From an uncultured Candidatus Peribacteria bacterium (GTDB lineage Bacteria > Patescibacteriota > Gracilibacteria > RBG-16-42-10): DNA of 64,000 nucleotides. The DNA is taken from NCBI GenBank assembly GCA_964514565.1, contig CAZERA010000001.1:310001-374000 (forward strand), written 5' to 3'. Position numbers: made by a program. The first letter of the stretch is position 1. Each line of letters opens with the position of its first letter. Positions 33,001-42,000 of the stretch are shown in pieces.

Positions 33001-36000
33001 CCCAAAAGTTTCTTTACTTTTGCTCCGTCGGTTCCCCATTGAGTTAAATCAACGCCGTTTGCACGTAAACACTCAGCAAGCTCTTCCAGGGAAGAAACTT
33101 GTATCGGTGTTTCTATAATTTCAATTGCCATAAATAGTAAGTTGAAAAATTAGAGAGGCTTCTGACAATCACTTTTAGCAAAAGATCAGGAAAGTAACCT
33201 AGCACTCTTGAAATAGTTTAACAAGAAGTGTGTTTAAGCTGATGCCAATGAAATAGTTTCTGGATCAAATAACCGAGTTGAGAATGGGGGATGATCATTA
33301 CGTTGATTCAAGGTTCTTAGCACAGTTGGCCATCTAGTACCTTCAGGTTGATTCATAGCTCTTAAAACATCATTCCACATTACTGTCGGTGGAGGCACAA
33401 TACCTAATCTTCTTAGAATGGCTCTGGGAGCCTCTCTATATTTATAAATCTCAGCGAATCCAAAGCGATCTATCCATTCAGTGGACGAAGAACTTTTTGG
33501 AATTAACACTGTATCGATATAGCGATCAATCGTATTTCTAGGTAAGCCCCAGCGTCTGGTTTCATCAGATAGAAGAATATCTCTGCGAAGATTGTAGGGC
33601 AGCAAATGCCGTCTGTTTAAATAATCACGCAATTGTTCTCGTTCAGCTAGATCTATATCCCAATCAAAAGTATTAGTATTTTCCAAACCAATTGTTCTAA
33701 TCTTTTCTTGGCGCTCTCTTTCTTTGACCTCGTCTGGATGCGCTCGCAAACTTAAACCTAACTTGCGTCGAGTGTCAGTTTTTAAGGCCAATTGATAAAT
33801 CAAATTGAAATCTTTTACTGCAAAAAGCCGCTTTTTATCAACATTGAATACCTTACTGATTTGGTCTAGTTCTCTTAAATAGCGCGCATTATTGGCTAGG
33901 TCTTCTTCAAGATCCTCTATTATTCCTTCAGCAGTTCCATCATTAGTGTCCTCAAGCAGTCTTTCTAGAGTTTGTCCGTCAGGTCCCAAGTTGTTTAAAG
34001 CTGTATTTCGGCGTTCGTGCAAAGATAAGTAATCTAGTGTTTGCCTGAATTTCCCCGCTTGGTTACCAGAAATAGCTAAATCCTCAGCTCTTTCCAGATC
34101 ATATGGCCCATCTCTTAATAGTCTATATCTTCGTTCGAAGATATCTTCTGCAGCAAATACTTGTTCCCACCACCCCTGCCATCTGGGGTCAGTACGAGCA
34201 GGTAGCCGACGATGATTAGATATACCCCAAAAAAGCATCTTGTCTCGTAATTCGGTCTCGGCTGTTAATGAGTTTGTCCTATTCTTACGAGAGAGGGCAA
34301 TGAATTCTTTCTCTGTTATATAAAGATATCGAGCTTCTCGTCTAATGTACTTTCTTTGTTCTGCAGCCAAAATATCAGCGTAGCTTTTTCTCCGCGATAA
34401 TCGGAGTGCCTCCCATTTCCAGCGATATAATTTTTCTGGTGGAGGAGCAGGTTCGAATGTCTGTAATTCAATTTCGAGTTGGGTCTTAAGATCCATAAAA
34501 GCATGCAAGTGTTTATGTTTAAACCATTGCATGGCATTCTGTCAATGGGTGGCTAAGTAATCAAATACTTCTTCAAGGAAAGCAGATTAGAAAGTTGTAG
34601 ACAATGGACTTCAGGATTAGGAATGGAGATATTAACTAATAAACATGGAATCATCAGTTCTTTCGGCACCCAATAGTCAGATTTCTCTCTGTCACCTATA
34701 TAAAGAAATTGTTCAGGCCTGAGCTCTGGATAACATTTCAACCATGCTCGATACGCACTTCCATCGCTTTTACCTACTTCGCCAGTGATAACTTGATCAA
34801 ATAGACCTAAAGGAATATTTAATTTCTTTAACTTTTTTTCAGCAATAGGTCGAATGGAACCAGTAATCAAATCAACATGTTTATACTTTTGTTTCAATTT
34901 ATTCAGTAATTCTAATACCTCGCCATTTGGTAGCAAGAATTCAGCAATGTCAGCATTTTCCAATGCTTCTTGTACTACTTCTTTTGGATTAGGAATGCCT
35001 AAGCTAGTGAGAGTCTGACTACCGCTCAATCCTTTACCACTTTGATAGAGATCAGTGAATAGTTTGCGTGCCGCAGCTAGATCGCATCCTTTATGTTGTG
35101 CAATCTTTTCATAAATGTAGCCTTGAATAGCTTCATCAATCTTAGGCGATTTAGGATACAAAGTCTGATCTAAATCAAAACCGATTACTTCAATTCCTGT
35201 GAAGTCAGTAGAACTAATAAGCGACATAGAAAAGGGTAAGAGCTCCCAATGGATAGTTGAGTGTCTGAGCGTATTGAGTGGCAATATAATTGAGCAAGTT
35301 TTGATCTTCGGCACGGTGATCAAGTGTGCGATTAGCAAACACAGCTGTCATGTGAAGCTTTTTGCCCATAACATTGGCCTGTAAGAATACTAAGCAATCA
35401 CTTTGTGGATCATCTTCCTTGGCATGATAGCTACTGATCAGTGGATTGTTGTGATTGATGCCTTTTTCTTTGAGATAGGTAATCGCTTTTTGTAATACAT
35501 TTTGGCCACGATAATTTTCTAAACGGGCTAGAAATGGGTGATCAGGTTTTGTGCTGTTTTCAATAAGATCGCTGTAGATGTATGCCAATCCATTGCTGGT
35601 TTGTGGTGCTTTTACATTGTCGCCTAATAAGTAAGGCCCAATATGAGTATCAGGGGACTCTACGGGTTTAGAAGGTTCAGCTAAAAGCTTCTTGGTACGT
35701 TGTTCTTCAGTGAGCAGCAAAATATTGGCACGGCTTGAAAGCATAAACATATCTCCCATTGGACACTTGAGCGCGTCTAATACTGTTTGTACATAAGCAT
35801 CATAAAGACCAAAAATATTCTCTGGATATGCATTGACTGTGTTGTGAGCACGGGCGATATGGAATGAATAGAGCTTGCCATCTTGTACCCAAAATATGTC
35901 ATGCGTCAGACAAGGATCATGGGAGAATTCCATTTTGTTGGTCTCCGGATTGAGCCAACTACTCATGTCTTCTGCTGGATCAAAACGTTGAACAATCGTC

Positions 36001-39000: not shown

Positions 39001-42000
39001 TTGTAAGTGTGTTTTTCCACAATGGGGGGCAACACATGAAAGTCCCCGCGTTCTGGCCAATGATACTTTACAGCGCATTGGAGATCATTGATTTGGAGAT
39101 TGTTTTTACGTAAAAAACTATCTACCTCAGCCATGATATCTAACTGATTTTGGTAGATAGTTGGTTGGCTGGTGAAAAGATTGAAAGATTTTTTATTGGG
39201 CAAAACCACTTGAGGAGGAGCTCCAACAGAAGTAGGAGGAAAGATCTGAGCAAGGGAATATTTGACTGCACCATAAGGATGGATCGGCCCTCCACGCACA
39301 TTATAGACACCAGCAAAAACTATTTTTTGCAGTGACTGATAGAGGCTGGCAAGTGAGATCTCTTTTATGATGGAAATATTGCTCATAGTGCTGAAATAAA
39401 ATTAACAGCTAACAGCACCATTGAATAAACAGTCCCAATTGGCAGCAGTGCCATTGAGCTTGATTTGGTACGTAGTGATAGTGGGGAATTGTAAGATTGT
39501 TTGTTTCATTTGTTCTTGAATGCGAGGATTGTCACACACACCACCGATCATGATTGTGCCCGAAAGATCGATGTCAGCATGTGTACCAGTAATGGTGACG
39601 CTATTTACGGTGAAGTTGTTTTGATAAAGAGCTGTAGTCAGACCAGACATGCCATAAGCCCTCGTGTGCACACTCATTAGTTCCTCAATCGCAGTCTTGA
39701 GAGGTGTTGTGGTACTAACACTGCGGTTGACCATCTCAATTTCGTCTCCACAACCAAACGTGGTTGCACTAGGAGTACCGATCTCATTTACTAGAGCAAT
39801 TTGTACTGTAGTAGTGGTGGCAGCAGTAGCACTTGGTGTGGGAGCTACTGTCATGCTGACAGGGGACGAGCTAGGTGTTGCTGTAGTCATGGGAGCAATA
39901 GTGACATTACAGCCAGTCAGTAGTAGTCCGGCGCTGATGATAGTGAGAAGTTTTTTCATGATTTTTTAGAGCTAAAGCTGCTGGTATTGTGGTGGTAGTG
40001 CGGCTAAAAAGCAAGATATAAATTGGAGCTCAACTCCACTTCAGCCTCTCACTATCGGGTATTCGTTTCTCCAAGAAACTAGTAATACGTGCTGGCACGA
40101 TACGATTATTAAACGTTTTTATGACTTGATCGCGTTGTCTAGCTATTGCTGCACGGTAAAGTGGTGCTATTCTCGCATTTCTTAACCAGCCATCAATGCC
40201 AGAACATAAAACAAATGCCGGTATGGTGTTAGTGAAAGCTTTATCTATATACCACTTGGGTAGTTGATTAGTTGATTCAGGAAATGCCTCGTCACAATCA
40301 TTACCAGAAAATAGTCGAGACTCGCCTACATTTTGGATAATGCTAGTCAGTACATCAATTGGCAGTAAAACATCCAATCTGCCATTACTGTCAGTAGGTA
40401 ATAATACGCGACTCAGACTTGCACGTATTTGGTTTCGTTCTTCTTCAGTAAAACGTTGGATCTCGGTATAGGTAGAGATGGGAAAATCTCCTTCTGTCAT
40501 TAATGCAGCTAAATTCTCATCTGCTTCACTCCCCCTTGTGCATCGTGATTGGAAATCAATTGTATCCATAGCTATAAAACTACGGATAAAATCGCGACAA
40601 TCACTTGATGAAAAGTCTACATGTGCCGGTGTGCTCTGCTCTGACGTTACTTTACTTTTCCAATCTAGAAAATGGCGAGAAGGTGTACTCACAAAAAATA
40701 GTTAGGAGAATAATCTATGCTGCCCAAGTCACAAAATCAACCAATTATATGTGCATACCTATTTACTGTTTCTTATTTCAATATTTGCTACATTGGTGGT
40801 GATCCTATCTTTGATAATCTCTAGTATGCTTATGCCTGGTTCCAAGTTTTCTTATTGGTTAAAAGGGCTCATGATAGTTGATATGGTTGGTTTAATTGTT
40901 GCTGCTATTTGGTTTGTCCATATCCAACAATTCTTAACAACAGCAGTTAAGACCACTGGTCATATTAGTGCCATAGTGACTGAAGTCGATGGGGAGGGGG
41001 ATCTGACCTATACTCCAGAAATTGAGTTTCAAGATCAGCATGGGAAAATTTATCGATTTCGTACAATTGTCAGCGGCAACGAACATGAGCGGCAAGTGGG
41101 CGAGCAGGTACCTGTGGTTTATGATCCCCAAAATGCGACCAATGCTAGTGTTGATACCTTAGTAGAGCTGTACCTTGGTGTATTTGCTTTATCGTTAGTG
41201 TCTCTAGTACTACTTCTTGCTGGCTTGATTGCTGGATGGCTACTCAATAAAGAAGAAAAACGAAAGTTAGATTTGGTCAATAATGGCCAAAGGATTACTG
41301 CCAGTATTGTGGATATTCTTCACCTGACTTCTATTAAGCGTCGCGGGCAGTCTCCTTGGATGGTAATAGCTACTTGGACCAACCCTCTAGATAGTAAAAA
41401 GTATGATTTTTCCAGTGAGTCAGTATGGTTTGATCCAAAGCAGTATTTAGGAGCAGGGAGAGTGAATGTTTACATTGATCCAAGTAATCCTGACCAATAT
41501 TTCATGGAAATTCCTCAGCCATTTGATGGAGAAGGTAACTAGACTGTTTAGTTAGTTCCAAATGTTCTTTGTCCTTTTCCTTTAGCTTTAGCCGGCTCAG
41601 CTACTCGTTGTGTTTTGTTCCAAGTTGCAATAAATACTTCGCGATGTTCACCCAAAGCTTGTTTGAATCTTTTTAAAAGTTCAGGTGTATTTAGAATAGT
41701 AGTGAGCTCTAGGCAGAGGGTGTATACAGTACTAAAATCACTGATATCAGTGTCTAGTATCCATTCTAAATAATTTTCTATAATACTTGGTTGGAAAAGA
41801 TACTTGCTTGCTACGTCCATCAATAATTGTGGGAAAAGATCATTGTTATTGGCAGCTTCTATGATCTCCAACAAGATTTGAATTGGAAGATAATCTGCTA
41901 AAACATTTTCGCTATTGATTGGAAGTAATACTGAGCGAATGTCCTGTCGAATTGCCGTACGCTCAGTAGTAGTCAATGTACAAATCGCTTCATATGCTTC

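What a model noticed while it worked through the whole genome (the two positions that open the first line are those of the whole stretch)
34553..39386. Four-gene CPR/DPANN cassette built around an MtrA-like/ThyA-like fusion enzyme that stands in for the missing thymidylat [...]
g00302-g00301-g00300-g00299 form a co-directional cassette: a ParB/sulfiredoxin-fold protein of unknown function (298 aa), a two-domain cytidine-deaminase-fold protein with one intact H-A-E / C-x-x-C zinc site (291 aa), an 802-aa fusion of an MtrA-like domain, a middle domain and a divergent thymidylate-synthase-fold domain that keeps the nucleophile Cys (DPC571), Arg591 and Asn602 but has Asn for the folate-binding Asp, and a HAD hydrolase (224 aa). 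The genome has no ThyA, ThyX or DHFR, so I propose that the cassette is a new route from (deoxy)cytidine compounds to thymidine nucleotides. Most other genomes with the cassette also lack a recognisable thymidylate kinase, which makes the ParB/s [...]
Evidence so far: Call 62: 143 homologues of g00300, 51-96% id, none named beyond 'hypothetical'/'thymidylate synthase', some with PF04208 (MtrA). Calls 69,70,72: 51 loci in 185,579 species genomes (CPR: Peribacteria, Pacei-, Kaiser-, Zambryski-, Saccharibacteria; DPANN: Woese-, Nano-, Iainarchaeia at 42-47% id); g00301, g00302, g00299 homologues adjacent in 47, 45-47 and 45-46 of 51 (misses at contig ends). Call 73: further neighbours are dUTPase (20 loci) and SHMT (14 loci). 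Calls 63,64: no Thy1/Thymidylat_synt hit here; calls 74,75: 0 of 30 cassette genomes have ThyX and 2 of 30 a ThyA hit, against 53 of 150 and 81 of 150 sampled Patescibacteria; the one sampled genome with the cassette (G027, call 68) has [...]
(Added by a program. Inside this text positions count along the whole contig: contig position 310,001 is position 1 of the stretch shown here. "Call 12" and the like, gene names such as g00115 and contig names such as C1 are that model's own, and its searches are not shown. The text may have been shortened before it was handed on; [...] marks where a part breaks off. The agent that wrote the report below was given it as the finding of a first reader that could run no searches.)

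Follow-up and report, generated by a model that had tools for sequence, protein, structure and literature searches.

The report
Four-gene stand-in for thymidylate synthase
A tightly conserved four-gene operon of tiny symbiotic bacteria and archaea, built around a very unusual 802-residue relative of thymidylate synthase, is found only in genomes lacking both known enzymes that make the DNA base thymine, so it probably makes thymine nucleotides by an undescribed route.

Summary
Window 34553-39386 (minus strand) holds four overlapping genes: a ParB/sulfiredoxin-like protein, a two-domain cytidine-deaminase-like protein, an 802-aa fusion and a HAD phosphatase.

Gene order is conserved wherever testable in 54 metagenome loci (CDA 41/41, ParB 35/35, HAD 35/35), on bacterial and archaeal contigs. 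dUTPase (13 loci) and SHMT (10 loci) are frequent neighbours.

In the window's order, 6 of 9 genomes carry the cassette and have no ThyA or ThyX hit. The other 3 each have a ThyA-family gene, which in two sister genomes sits in the same chromosomal slot. In a class sample, 186 of 195 cassette-less genomes have ThyA or ThyX, against 0 of 6 cassette genomes. One unrelated cassette genome also has neither.

Best reading (0.6): a thymidylate-synthase replacement module. The chemistry and the roles of the three partners are inferred, not shown. The proposal that the ParB-like protein replaces dTMP kinase is not supported in this lineage.

The parts
38490..39386 (-). ParB/sulfiredoxin-like protein (298 aa) with an invariant C204-D-G-S-H208-R209-x-D211 motif; first gene of the cassette
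   Evidence: ORF. Pfam ParB-CE PF24392, E 1.5e-5, 25.4 bits against a cut-off of 23. Invariant residues in 30 homologues. AF2 model pLDDT 88.8, pTM 0.88. The best structural matches are weak but are mostly ParB/Srx-fold proteins: sulfiredoxin 6ky4 Z 4.5 (rmsd 3.0, 84 aligned), free serine kinase 5x0b Z 4.0, PadC, Atu1540, SbnI, Osa, ParB-N, KorB. Found in exactly the 6 of 201 class genomes that hold the fusion.
37609..38484 (-). Two-domain cytidine-deaminase-fold protein (291 aa). The N-terminal half has no zinc ligands; the C-terminal half has H206-A-E208 and C241-x-x-C244.
   Evidence: A profile of 28 homologues matches tetrameric cytidine deaminases over residues 159-289 (B. subtilis 1ux1 E 3.3e-13, yeast 1r5t E 1.7e-12, human 1mq0 E 2.4e-9). 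Fused to the N-terminus of the fusion enzyme in P0126, 1111 aa.
37005..37622 (-). Fusion enzyme residues 1-206: MtrA-like Rossmann-type domain, with invariant Phe90 at the position of the MtrA His
   Evidence: VIA-align: 5laa_B (MtrA with cobalamin) Z 16.4, rmsd 2.2, 152 of 159 residues aligned. Sequence alignments to 8q3v and 5laa put F90 opposite the His of 'QGH'. 33 of 38 family members hit PF04208 at E<=1, best 5.9e-7. hhalign against the N-terminus of the 482-aa family: probability 98.2.
36642..37004 (-). Fusion enzyme residues 207-327: strand-rich insert plus two helices, no family assigned
   Evidence: Secondary structure of the AF2 model. No Pfam hit. Not separately folded or searched.
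36387..36641 (-). Fusion enzyme residues 328-412: PterinBD-DUF4346 domain
   Evidence: hhalign against the C-terminal PF14251 domain of the 482-aa family: probability 97.1, E 7.7e-11, 80 columns. Weak PF14251 hits in 3 of 38 members and in P0126. Clear PF14251 hits in the distant 811-906-aa relatives.
35643..36353 (-). Fusion enzyme residues 424-660: thymidylate-synthase-fold domain with the active-site Cys571 (codon 35910-35912)
   Evidence: TIGR03283, E 1.5e-14. Foldseek: 402 PDB matches at E<=0.001, all listed ones TS-fold enzymes or a design on that fold. VIA-align: 9iqc_A Z 17.4, MilA 5jnh Z 15.7, ThyA 3ix6 Z 15.1, T4 dCMP hydroxymethylase 6l18 Z 11.8. Residue mapping to E. coli ThyA. hhalign against the 482-aa family: probability 99.8.
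35217..35642 (-). Fusion enzyme residues 661-802: second, degenerate TS-fold core. It has no conserved Cys, and invariant H724-N725-N726 at the place of the S-R-R motif.
   Evidence: hhalign of this part against the TS region of the 482-aa family: probability 97.7, E 2e-12, 98 columns. The same strand-strand-long helix-strand order as the active domain appears in the model. Language-model neighbours are 168-183-aa proteins, of which 12-17% carry PF00303 (a lead only).
34553..35227 (-). HAD-superfamily phosphatase (224 aa) with the D18-x-D20-x-T22 motif, resembling pyrimidine 5'-nucleotidases
   Evidence: PF00702, E 5.4e-11, 43.7 bits against a cut-off of 26.4. TIGR01993, E 3.1e-11, and TIGR02253, E 1.8e-11, both below their cut-offs. 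The motif was read in the translation. Fused to the C-terminus of the fusion enzyme in P0127 (981 aa) and in L050 (1082-aa ORF).

Best explanation
The four genes are one operon that supplies thymidine nucleotides in organisms with neither ThyA nor ThyX.

The TS-fold domain of the 802-aa protein most likely attacks C6 of a deoxyuridine compound with Cys571 and transfers a one-carbon unit from 5,10-methylene-tetrahydrofolate to C5. SHMT would make the folate donor. The deaminase, or a neighbouring dUTPase or dCMP deaminase, would make the uracil compound. The product or end product would be thymidylate, which the genome's two dTMP kinases then take on.

The cytidine-deaminase-like protein turns a (deoxy)cytidine compound into the uracil substrate. 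The ParB/Srx-like protein (a fold that includes ATP-dependent phosphotransferases) and the HAD phosphatase adjust the phosphorylation state of substrate, intermediate or product. The MtrA-like plus PterinBD module, shared with a wider family of TS fusions, probably handles the pterin cofactor. One possibility is recycling it without DHFR.

Shown here: the anatomy, the conserved active-site residues, the fixed gene order, the fusions, the neighbours and the mutually exclusive distribution with ThyA/ThyX.

Inferred: every chemical step, the donor, the product and the roles of the three partners.
For: 1. TS fold with the nucleophile and key residues. C571=C146, Y514=Y94, R591=R166 and N602=N177 (uracil rather than cytosine) in E. 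coli numbering, all invariant in 38 homologues. Fold matches Z 15-17. TIGR03283, E 1.5e-14.

2. Mutually exclusive distribution.
- Order, 9 genomes: fusion in 6; PF00303 hits only in the other 3; ThyX in 0 of 9.
- Class sample, 201 genomes: ThyA or ThyX in 186 of 195 fusion-less genomes and 0 of 6 fusion genomes; 9 have none of the three.
- Phylum sample: the one further holder among 400, G226 (98% complete), has the full cassette and no ThyA or ThyX hit.

3. Same slot. In same-genus pairs (G003 vs G002, G008 vs G007), the cassette, or a cluster ending in a 482-aa MtrA-TS-PterinBD gene, lies between the same lipoprotein gene and the same 216-aa gene.

4. Neighbours in 54 metagenome loci: dUTPase in 13 and SHMT in 10, mostly directly upstream. 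In L056, dUTPase-dCMP deaminase, the cassette and SHMT are all co-directional. A dCMP deaminase is next to L063, and RNR lies two genes from the cassette in L087.

5. The own genome has RNR, SHMT and two dTMP kinases above the TIGR00041 cut-off. It has no hit to thymidine kinase, trimeric dUTPase, another PF00383 deaminase, DHFR or MTHFR.

6. The cassette is a unit.
- Adjacency: CDA 41 of 41, ParB 35 of 35, HAD 35 of 35 testable loci.
- Fusions: CDA-fusion and fusion-HAD.
- The ParB-like and the full-length CDA genes occur in exactly the 6 fusion genomes of 201.

7. Strong conservation over all 802 residues: mean column identity 59%; 42-47% to copies on archaeal contigs.
Against: - The Asp that binds the folate pterin in ThyA (D169) is an invariant Asn594. 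The residues that hold the 3'-OH of dUMP (H207, Y209) are Asn633 and Leu635. R127 is Ala. Mappings are; the roles of these residues are recalled. All related TS-fusion families keep the Asp.
- The protein is below the curated cut-offs of PF00303 (16.1 vs 24.3 bits) and TIGR03283 (54 vs 174.55).
- A plain thymidylate synthase needs no deaminase, ParB-like protein or phosphatase, yet these are never missing. A nucleotidase fused to the enzyme would, on the face of it, destroy dTMP.
- The best structural neighbours include enzymes that do not methylate: a flavin-dependent dCMP monooxygenase at Z 17.4 and CMP hydroxymethylase at Z 15.7, against ThyA at Z 15.1. These are within about 2 Z units of each other.
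- The six cassette genomes of the class all belong to one family, so I tested only two independent lineages.
- The genome is 92.66% complete.
- 9 of 195 cassette-less genomes also lack ThyA and ThyX, so living without either is possible in this class.
- The whole-genome family search is less sensitive than hmmscan: it missed the fusion's own weak PF00303 match and the cassette deaminase.
Confidence: 0.6

Rival explanations
1. The TS-fold domain makes another C5-modified pyrimidine nucleotide, for example 5-hydroxymethyl-dUMP. The partners (kinase-like, phosphatase, deaminase) process it. The modified base either replaces or supplements thymine in DNA, or is an intermediate that later steps of the cassette convert to thymidylate.
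For: - The Asp-to-Asn change at the folate site and the changed sugar-binding residues.
- Structural neighbours that hydroxylate or hydroxymethylate score as high as ThyA.
- No DHFR is needed for a hydroxymethylase, and none is found in 4 of the 6 cassette genomes of the order (G004 has hits over the cut-off, G003 a weak one).
- The ParB/Srx fold includes free serine kinases that phosphorylate a CH2OH group (5x0b Z 4.0, 5ujd Z 3.5; the SbnI function is recalled).
- Sets of deaminase, TS homologue, kinase and phosphatase are known from phages with replaced bases (recalled).
- The same chromosomal slot in sister genomes holds a horizontally moved island with nucleotidyltransferase, HIT and aminotransferase genes.
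Against: - No relative in IMG/VR viral contigs and no tblastn hit of the ParB-like protein in 50,697 phage records.
- The genome keeps two dTMP kinases above the equivalog cut-off.
- The mutually exclusive pattern with ThyA/ThyX fits a replacement of the same essential product better than an accessory modification.
- The cassette sits among housekeeping genes (ArgRS, IleRS, L11, NusG) in most lineages.
- A cell with no thymine at all has no precedent (recalled).
Confidence: 0.17
2. The cassette is a pyrimidine salvage or pool-balancing module that does not make the methyl group. These symbionts take thymidine nucleotides from their hosts, and the TS-fold domain only binds or exchanges nucleotides.
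For: - CPR and DPANN organisms are host-dependent (statements in the papers; otherwise recalled).
- 9 of 195 cassette-less class genomes also have neither ThyA nor ThyX.
- Deaminase, kinase-like protein and nucleotidase are classic salvage activities.
- The protein is below TS family cut-offs.
Against: - The nucleophile Cys, Tyr514, Arg591 and Asn602 are invariant, which is not expected of a mere binding domain.
- 95% of the class keeps a thymidylate synthase.
- No thymidine kinase is found, while RNR is present.
- SHMT is a neighbour.
- A ThyA-family gene replaces the cassette in the same slot.
Confidence: 0.08
3. An Xp12-like route: the TS-fold domain methylates a cytosine nucleotide, and the cassette deaminase then converts 5-methyl-dC nucleotide into thymidine nucleotide.
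For: The deaminase gene is always next to, and sometimes fused with, the TS-fold enzyme. Such deaminase/TS-homologue pairs that make dT nucleotides from 5-methyl-dC nucleotides are described for phages in preprint 10.1101/2024.12.05.627091 (passages read).
Against: The residue at the position of E. coli N177 is an invariant Asn602. According to the passages read, Asp at this position marks the cytosine-specific enzymes.
Confidence: 0.05
4. Corrinoid route: the MtrA-like domain carries a cobamide that hands a methyl group directly to the C5 carbanion, so no folate is oxidised.
For: The fold is very close to cobalamin-bound MtrA (Z 16.4, rmsd 2.2). No DHFR is found in the genome.
Against: The cobalt-ligand His of MtrA is an invariant Phe90, and Ser in the 482-aa family (the ligand role of the His is recalled). 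There is no MTHFR to make methyl-tetrahydrofolate. No pterin-binding TIM-barrel domain is present in the protein.
Confidence: 0.04

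Closest known systems
Archaeal (methanogen-type) thymidylate synthase, NCBIfam TIGR03283, and the short ~200-aa stand-alone forms (P0188, P0190, P0202)
   Same: It is the best-scoring named family for residues 492-607 (E 1.5e-14). It shares the TS fold core, the P-C nucleophile motif, Y-x-Y-G-x-R, D-Q, R166 and N177 equivalents, and the same lack of the E58/W80/W83 segment of bacterial ThyA.
   Different: The score of 54 bits is far below the cut-off of 174.55. The window protein has Asn for D169, Asn/Leu for H207/Y209 and Arg for the Ser before them. It has four extra domains and three obligatory partner genes.
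Uncharacterised 460-520-aa MtrA-like + TS + PterinBD-DUF4346 fusion proteins (e.g. the 482-aa gene of G002/G007, P0171, P0185; archaeal MtrA+TS forms such as P0163)
   Same: All three domain types are shared: hhalign 98.2, 99.8 and 97.1%. The cobalt-ligand His is also missing. This gene occupies the same chromosomal slot in sister genomes and is their only PF00303 hit.
   Different: The domain order differs (MtrA-TS-PterinBD against MtrA-insert-PterinBD-TS-pseudoTS). These proteins keep D169, H207, Y209 and the S-R-R motif. They are not accompanied by the ParB-like, two-domain CDA or HAD genes. I found no paper on them either.
ThyX (flavin-dependent thymidylate synthase)
   Same: The likely biological role is the same: making thymidylate in genomes without ThyA and without need of DHFR. 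It also shows a patchy, mutually exclusive distribution.
   Different: There is no sequence or fold relation: no PF02511 hit, and the window protein has the ThyA fold.
TS-fold enzymes that do other chemistry: phage dCMP hydroxylase AfhB / flavin-dependent dCMP monooxygenase (9iqu, 9iqc), CMP hydroxymethylase MilA (5jnh), T4 dCMP hydroxymethylase (6l18)
   Same: These are among the top structural matches (Foldseek E 1.2e-8; Z 17.4, 15.7, 11.8).
   Different: Sequence identity is 10-16%. Those enzymes act on cytosine nucleotides, whereas the window protein has Asn at the N177 position.
MtrA, the corrinoid subunit of methyl-tetrahydromethanopterin:coenzyme M methyltransferase (5laa, 8q3v)
   Same: Residues 6-206 have the same fold (Z 16.4, rmsd 2.2), with weak sequence similarity (E 0.0007 with the family profile).
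   Different: The His aligned with the MtrA cobalt ligand is Phe90. The domain is fused to a TS-fold enzyme in organisms that are not methanogens.
ParB/sulfiredoxin-fold phosphotransferases: sulfiredoxin (6ky4, 1yzs), free serine kinase (5x0b), SbnI (5ujd)
   Same: These are the best, though weak, structural matches of the 298-aa protein (Z 4.5-3.5). It has a D-G-x-H-R type motif and a Pfam ParB-CE hit.
   Different: Z values are below the level that shows relatedness. Large strand-rich insertions are present. Foldseek finds nothing. No sequence match to any solved structure. The function is unknown.

Membership tests
Thymidylate synthase ThyA superfamily (PF00303 / TIGR03283) | TS alpha/beta fold | tested here: met
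   Residues 424-655 align to ThyA 3ix6 at Z 15.1 (rmsd 2.8, 191 aligned), 6auj at Z 14.4 and 9iqc at Z 17.4. 402 Foldseek matches at E<=0.001.
Thymidylate synthase ThyA superfamily (PF00303 / TIGR03283) | Catalytic Cys in a Pro-Cys motif (E. coli C146), with R166, Y94 and N177 equivalents | tested here: met
   C571, R591, Y514 and N602 align and are invariant in 38 sequences. The roles of the E. coli residues are recalled; N177 as the dUMP/dCMP discriminator is also stated in the passages.
Thymidylate synthase ThyA superfamily (PF00303 / TIGR03283) | Folate-binding Asp (E. coli D169) and the 3'-OH-binding His207/Tyr209 | tested here: not met
   N594, N633 and L635, all invariant. The 482-aa family and the stand-alone archaeal forms keep D, H and Y.
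Thymidylate synthase ThyA superfamily (PF00303 / TIGR03283) | Score above the curated family cut-off | tested here: not met
   PF00303: 16.1 bits against 24.3. TIGR03283: 54 bits against 174.55. Only 6 of 38 family members hit PF00303 at E<=1.
Thymidylate synthase ThyA superfamily (PF00303 / TIGR03283) | Converts dUMP and methylene-tetrahydrofolate to dTMP | not testable with these tools
   Only indirect support: the exclusive distribution with ThyA/ThyX and the dUTPase/SHMT neighbours.
MtrA (PF04208) | MtrA fold | tested here: met
   5laa_B Z 16.4, rmsd 2.2, 152 aligned of 159.
MtrA (PF04208) | His that ligates the cobalt of the cobamide (His84 of MtrA; role recalled) | tested here: not met
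   Aligned residue is invariant Phe90.
MtrA (PF04208) | Score above the Pfam cut-off | tested here: not met
   13.9 bits against 25 for the window protein. 33 of 38 members match at E<=1, best 5.9e-7.
PterinBD-DUF4346 (PF14251) | Homology to the domain | tested here: met
   hhalign of residues 328-412 against the PF14251 domain of the 482-aa family: probability 97.1, E 7.7e-11. Direct Pfam hits are weak, in 3 of 38 members.
Cytidine deaminase, tetrameric type (TIGR01354) | H/C-A-E and C-x-x-C zinc site | tested here: met
   H206, E208, C241 and C244 are invariant in 28 sequences. The profile hits CDAs at E 3.3e-13.
Cytidine deaminase, tetrameric type (TIGR01354) | Ribose-binding Asn-x-Glu before the H/C-A-E motif (role recalled), and a score above the cut-off | tested here: not met
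   B. subtilis 'CNIEN' aligns with the family's 'GQYSS'. 33.5 bits against a cut-off of 113.65.
ParB/sulfiredoxin fold | Fold and a D-G-x-H-R type motif | tested here: inconclusive
   The motif C-D-G-S-H-R is invariant and PF24392 is above its cut-off. Structural matches are only Z 4.5-3.3, and Foldseek finds none.
HAD phosphatase (PF00702) | D-x-D-x-T nucleophile motif and a score above the cut-off | tested here: met
   F-D18-L-D20-Q-T22 in the translation. 43.7 bits against 26.4.
Pyrimidine 5'-nucleotidase (TIGR01993) | Score above the equivalog cut-off | tested here: not met
   43.4 bits against 142.9. It is a resemblance only.
ThyX (PF02511) | Any match | tested here: not met
   No hit in the genome at E<=1.

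The most novel reading that the evidence does not exclude
This would be a third way of making thymidylate: a four-enzyme, DHFR-independent pathway of CPR bacteria and DPANN archaea. A TS-fold domain with an altered folate and sugar-phosphate site, paired within the same chain with a dead TS-fold partner, does not work on dUMP in the classical way.

One version works at the nucleoside level: nucleotidase, then cytidine-type deaminase, then C5 methylation of deoxyuridine, then a ParB/Srx-fold thymidine kinase.

The other version goes through 5-hydroxymethyl-dUMP, whose CH2OH group is phosphorylated by the ParB/Srx-fold enzyme and then reduced.

Either version would add a new enzyme activity to the ParB/Srx fold and to the MtrA/DUF4346 module.
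Probability: 0.3. Interest if true: 0.9.

Novelty: new variant of a known kind. Interest (0 to 1): 0.78.

Why it matters
[quoted passage not shown] Genomes with neither are usually written off as incomplete or as salvagers.

Here a conserved, cross-domain operon fills exactly that gap. It could explain how a set of CPR and DPANN lineages make thymine. It would assign a role to four families now annotated as hypothetical: the ParB-CE proteins, a two-domain deaminase, the MtrA-like/DUF4346 module and the 802-aa fusion. It would also correct metabolic reconstructions that score these organisms as thymidine auxotrophs.

The changed folate-site residue and the obligatory kinase-like and phosphatase partners suggest chemistry that differs from both known synthases. 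The question is directly testable by complementing an E. coli thyA mutant.

Tried and rejected
- **ParB/Srx protein as a substitute for dTMP kinase.** Rejected for this lineage.
- **His-on cobamide binding by the MtrA-like domain.** Rejected: Phe90. A methyl-tetrahydrofolate route is unlikely, as no MTHFR hit was found.
- **Complex prediction.** ParB-like protein against fusion residues 207-802 gave 'no answer' (score 0.00, mark 0.32). No conclusion is drawn.
- **Expression.** No RNA holder is listed among sequencing runs, and all 8 holders hold small shares only.
- **Viral origin.** The IMG/VR scan with the family alignment gave 0 relatives from 32 pattern matches. tblastn of the ParB-like protein against phage records gave no match.
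- **Fused longer forms of the ParB-like protein.** None at E<=1e-5. This is weak evidence.
- **ParB-like model in Foldseek.** Best E 0.05.
- **ParB-like family against PDB sequences.** Only a chance-level hit, E 0.19.
- **First search for related loci on genome contigs.** The single-protein query gave 2 true loci plus 3 Selenomonas stretches (25-27% identity over residues 101-190), which I took as chance and did not follow.
- **Family of G226.** It holds only G226, so there was no second natural experiment.
- **Earlier-findings tool.** It was closed.
- **Literature.** Searches were 'thymidylate synthase'/MtrA/Patescibacteria; thymidylate synthase/CPR/DPANN/ThyX; DUF4346, 0 papers; dCMP hydroxylase; PterinBD/MtrA-like/ParB-CE; Peribacteria/thymidylate; and novel/third/alternative thymidylate synthase. 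No paper describing this fusion or cassette turned up. Subscription journals are not covered.

Full report
**1. What is there**

Window 34553-39386 carries four co-directional minus-strand ORFs.

| Gene | Coordinates | Length |
|---|---|---|
| ParB-like | 38490-39386 | 298 aa |
| Cytidine-deaminase-like | 37609-38484 | 291 aa |
| Fusion | 35214-37622 | 802 aa |
| HAD | 34553-35227 | 224 aa from the ATG |

The longest HAD ORF starts further up at a TTG. The second/third and third/fourth genes overlap by 14 bases, which suggests a single translationally coupled operon.

The window is G000:C1:310001-374000 of a 1.118-Mb, 7-contig genome estimated 92.66% complete. Its closest public relatives are MAGs titled Candidatus Peribacteria.

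**2. Family assignments**

- ParB-like protein: PF24392 'ParB CE', E 1.5e-5, above its cut-off.
- Deaminase, residues 180-284: tetrameric cytidine deaminase TIGR01354, E 4e-8.
- Fusion, residues 492-607: methanogen-type thymidylate synthase TIGR03283, E 1.5e-14.
- Fusion, residues 46-142: MtrA, E 3.7e-4 for NF002126.
- Last gene: a HAD hydrolase (PF00702, E 5e-11) resembling pyrimidine 5'-nucleotidase TIGR01993 (E 3e-11, below its cut-off).

All four are conserved families. There are 178 proteins at E<=0.001 for the fusion; the 120 listed share 51-96% identity, are about 800 aa long, and are named at most 'hypothetical' or 'thymidylate synthase'. There are 202 proteins for the ParB-like protein, all 'hypothetical', among them records titled Woesearchaeota and Nanoarchaeia.

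**3. Anatomy of the fusion**

An AF2 model from 38 homologues has pLDDT 84.3 and pTM 0.66. The protein has five parts.

- **MtrA-like domain, residues 6-206.** They superpose on cobalamin-bound MtrA (5laa_B: Z 16.4, rmsd 2.2, 152 of 159 residues). In the sequence alignments, the His of the MtrA 'QGH' motif faces the invariant Phe90. I recall that His as the cobalt ligand.
- **Insert, residues 207-327.** No family could be assigned.
- **PterinBD-DUF4346 domain, residues 328-412.** hhalign gives probability 97.1, E 7.7e-11.
- **TS-fold domain, residues 424-655.** Matches are 9iqc_A at Z 17.4, MilA at Z 15.7, ThyA 3ix6 at Z 15.1 and T4 dCMP hydroxymethylase at Z 11.8. Foldseek finds 402 matches at E<=0.001.
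- **Degenerate second TS-fold core, residues 661-802.** hhalign against the TS region of a related family gives probability 97.7, E 2e-12, over 98 columns. It has no conserved Cys and has invariant His724-Asn725-Asn726 where TS has Ser-Arg-Arg.

ThyA is an obligate dimer whose partner subunit supplies those two Arg to the phosphate site (recalled). The degenerate core may therefore act as a built-in pseudo-partner. I could not inspect the model's coordinates, so this remains an inference.

**4. Active site**

The active TS domain was aligned with E. coli ThyA and with related families.

| E. coli ThyA residue | Fusion residue | Status |
|---|---|---|
| C146 | Cys571 | kept |
| Y94 | Tyr514 | kept |
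| R166 | Arg591 | kept |
| N177 | Asn602 | kept |
| R126 | Lys539 (Arg in the family consensus) | kept in kind |
| R127 | Ala | changed |
| D169 | Asn594 | changed |
| H207 | Asn633 | changed |
| Y209 | Leu635 | changed |
| D205 | Arg631 | changed |

Apart from Lys539 and the Ala at R127, which vary within the family, the listed fusion residues are invariant in 38 sequences. The related families keep Asp, His and Tyr at these positions.

Asn at the N177 position points to a uracil rather than a cytosine substrate. The passages of preprint 10.1101/2024.12.05.627091 use this rule. The changed residues mean that the cofactor and sugar-phosphate sites are not canonical.

**5. Relatives**

A search of 1.84 billion representatives, with Pfam scans, shows a wider and apparently unstudied superfamily.

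- Proteins of 460-520 aa with MtrA-like + TS + PterinBD. One cluster includes a Thermoprotei MAG protein.
- Proteins of 811-906 aa with MtrA + PterinBD + TS at 26-32% identity.
- Stand-alone archaeal-type TS of about 200 aa.

Two fusions tie the cassette together. P0126 (1111 aa) is deaminase plus fusion, and P0127 (981 aa) is fusion plus HAD. L050 also has a fusion-HAD ORF of 1082 aa.

**6. The cassette is a unit**

In 54 metagenome loci, the deaminase gene is adjacent in 41 of 41 loci with enough flank, the ParB-like gene in 35 of 35, and the HAD gene in 35 of 35. The order is always ParB-CDA-fusion-HAD, except in L063, where it is fusion-HAD-ParB-CDA.

Some loci are archaeal by their neighbours: Cdc6, PolD DP1 and LonB in L063; PolD DP2 in L083; Spt5-NGN in L085.

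In a 201-genome sample of the window's class, the ParB-like gene and the full-length two-domain deaminase occur in exactly the six genomes that hold the fusion.

**7. Neighbours**

The commonest neighbour families are ArgRS (17 loci), L11 (17), NusG (14), dUTPase (13), SIMPL (12), IleRS (10) and SHMT (10).

dUTPase and/or SHMT usually lie directly upstream, divergently transcribed. In L056, a dUTPase-dCMP-deaminase fusion, the cassette and SHMT are all co-directional. L063 has a dCMP deaminase next to the cassette, and L087 has a ribonucleotide reductase two genes away.

These are the classical suppliers of dUMP and methylene-tetrahydrofolate for thymidylate synthesis.

**8. Distribution against ThyA and ThyX**

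- **Order (9 genomes).** The fusion is in 6: G000, G003, G004, G005, G006 and G008. PF00303 hits occur only in the other 3. ThyX occurs in none. G001 has a canonical 300-aa ThyA (E 7.8e-109) beside a canonical DHFR. G002 and G007 have a 482-aa MtrA-TS-PterinBD gene.
- **Class sample (201 genomes).** 149 have PF00303 and 39 have PF02511, with 2 having both. So 186 of the 195 fusion-less genomes, and 0 of the 6 fusion genomes, have a known synthase. 9 genomes have none of the three (I checked the cross-tabulation by hand against the tallies).
- **Phylum sample (400 other genomes).** One more holder turned up, G226 (98% complete, another family). It has the complete cassette and no ThyA or ThyX hit.

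The six class genomes are kin, so this amounts to about two independent lineages. Within the order, however, same-genus pairs differ, which argues for repeated swaps.

**9. Same slot**

In G003 and G005 the order is lipoprotein-ParB-CDA-fusion-HAD, followed in G003 by a 216-aa gene homologous to window 31885-32526.

In G002 and G007, the space between the same lipoprotein gene and the same 216-aa gene instead holds six other genes: a cytidylyltransferase-like gene, a 273-aa dCMP-deaminase-like gene, a HIT gene, a class I/II aminotransferase-like gene, a second HIT gene, and the 482-aa TS fusion.

In the five genes shared by both copies, that island is 71-91% identical between G002 and G007 (the second HIT gene has no counterpart in G007), while the flanking genes are about 50-60% identical. 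The island therefore moved recently. This supports functional equivalence of the two TS-type genes. It also shows that the locus is a swap hot-spot, which leaves room for the modified-base rival.

**10. Metabolic setting of the window's genome**

- Present: ribonucleotide reductase, SHMT, and two tandem dTMP kinase genes that pass the TIGR00041 cut-off at 97.9 and 84.4 bits against 83.25.
- No match: thymidine kinase, trimeric dUTPase, MTHFR, DHFR and any further PF00383 deaminase.

The whole-genome family search is less sensitive than hmmscan. It missed the cassette's own weak matches. The genome thus has consumers of dTMP and makers of deoxynucleotides, but no known source of the methyl group other than the cassette.

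**11. The partner proteins**

- **Deaminase.** Its catalytic half is clearly of the nucleoside (tetrameric CDA) type (E 3.3e-13 to B. subtilis CDA). However, the Asn-x-Glu that I recall as ribose-binding is aligned with Gln-Tyr-Ser.
- **ParB-like protein.** It folds confidently (pLDDT 88.8) but has no Foldseek match. VIA-align gives only weak matches, nearly all of them ParB/Srx-fold proteins, including sulfiredoxin and two free serine kinases (Z 4.5-3.5).
- **HAD.** It has the D-x-D-x-T nucleophile motif.

That all three are always present, even where dUTPase or dCMP deaminase are also neighbours, suggests they take part in the conversion itself rather than merely feeding it.

dTMP kinase hits are present in 5 of the 6 cassette genomes of the order, and absent in both genomes of genus g3 whichever TS type they carry. 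The kinase-replacement idea therefore fails here.

**12. Verdict**

The finding is real. Its central claim, that the cassette stands in for thymidylate synthase, is the best-supported reading (0.6).

The rivals are:
- another C5-modified pyrimidine (0.17);
- a salvage module (0.08);
- dCMP methylation followed by deamination (0.05);
- a corrinoid route (0.04).

I found no paper on this fusion or cassette in seven searches. Papers were read only as passages: PMC12455944, PMC11974145, PMC11291895, PMC2826268 and 10.1101/2024.12.05.627091. In PMC9931769 none of my terms occurred. No supplements were read.

It is a new variant within the TS superfamily, with a possibly new pathway around it.

Noticed in passing
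L025:5147-10016 (G002:C9) and L024:5174-9503 (G007:C8): A six-gene island: cytidylyltransferase-like, 273-aa dCMP-deaminase-like with an extra N-terminal domain, HIT, class I/II aminotransferase-like, HIT, and a 482-aa MtrA-TS-PterinBD gene. It sits in the slot the cassette occupies in sister genomes. The five genes shared by both genera are 71-91% identical (the second HIT gene is missing in G007), while flanking genes are about 50-60% identical, so it was transferred recently. Whether the first five genes work with the TS gene is unknown.
   Followed up: partly
G000:C1:35138-36306 (outside the window; L001:1177-2804): Two tandem dTMP kinase genes (281 and 259 aa), both just above the TIGR00041 equivalog cut-off. 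The tandem pair recurs in G002-G006.
   Followed up: partly
L046, L047, L057, L067 (next to the cassette): A reverse transcriptase (RVT_1) with a bAvd-like gene, the signature of a diversity-generating retroelement. It lies directly beside the cassette in 4 loci; only one representative of each was scanned.
   Followed up: no
L083:9185-9892 and L085:4052-4792 (also a gap in L084): On archaeal-type contigs, an extra minus-strand gene of about 235-246 aa sits between the deaminase and the fusion. The L083 copy hits SMODS-associated NUDIX (E 1e-8); the L085 copy has no Pfam hit.
   Followed up: no
P0145, P0152, P0154, P0155, P0157, P0178 (no loci): Distant relatives of 811-906 aa (26-32% identity) with MtrA + PterinBD-DUF4346 + TS. 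They keep the Asp of D169 but have Asn-Asn-Tyr/Phe-Arg where ThyA has His-Leu-Tyr. Their gene neighbourhoods were not looked at.
   Followed up: no
Class sample, family f10 (e.g. G016, G034, G057): 21 of 22 genomes of one family have a PF00303 hit, nearly all of only about E 1e-53 to 1e-58 covering positions 1 to about 230-250 of 266, in ORFs of about 280-335 aa. This looks like a divergent ThyA subgroup.
   Followed up: no
Class sample (e.g. G014, G030, G038, G053, G064, G117, G168): Many ThyX hits are two tandem Thy1 stretches inside single ORFs of 440-616 aa, that is, internally duplicated ThyX genes.
   Followed up: no
Class sample (e.g. G037, G049, G081, G137, G186): ThyA matches with up to 17 in-frame TGA codons, as expected for lineages of this class that read TGA as a residue. 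The window's own genes are open under table 11.
   Followed up: no
L007-L009 (Selenomonas genomes): Weak tblastn matches (25-27% identity) to fusion residues 101-190, at E about 1e-3 relative to the candidate stretches only. Taken as chance.
   Followed up: no
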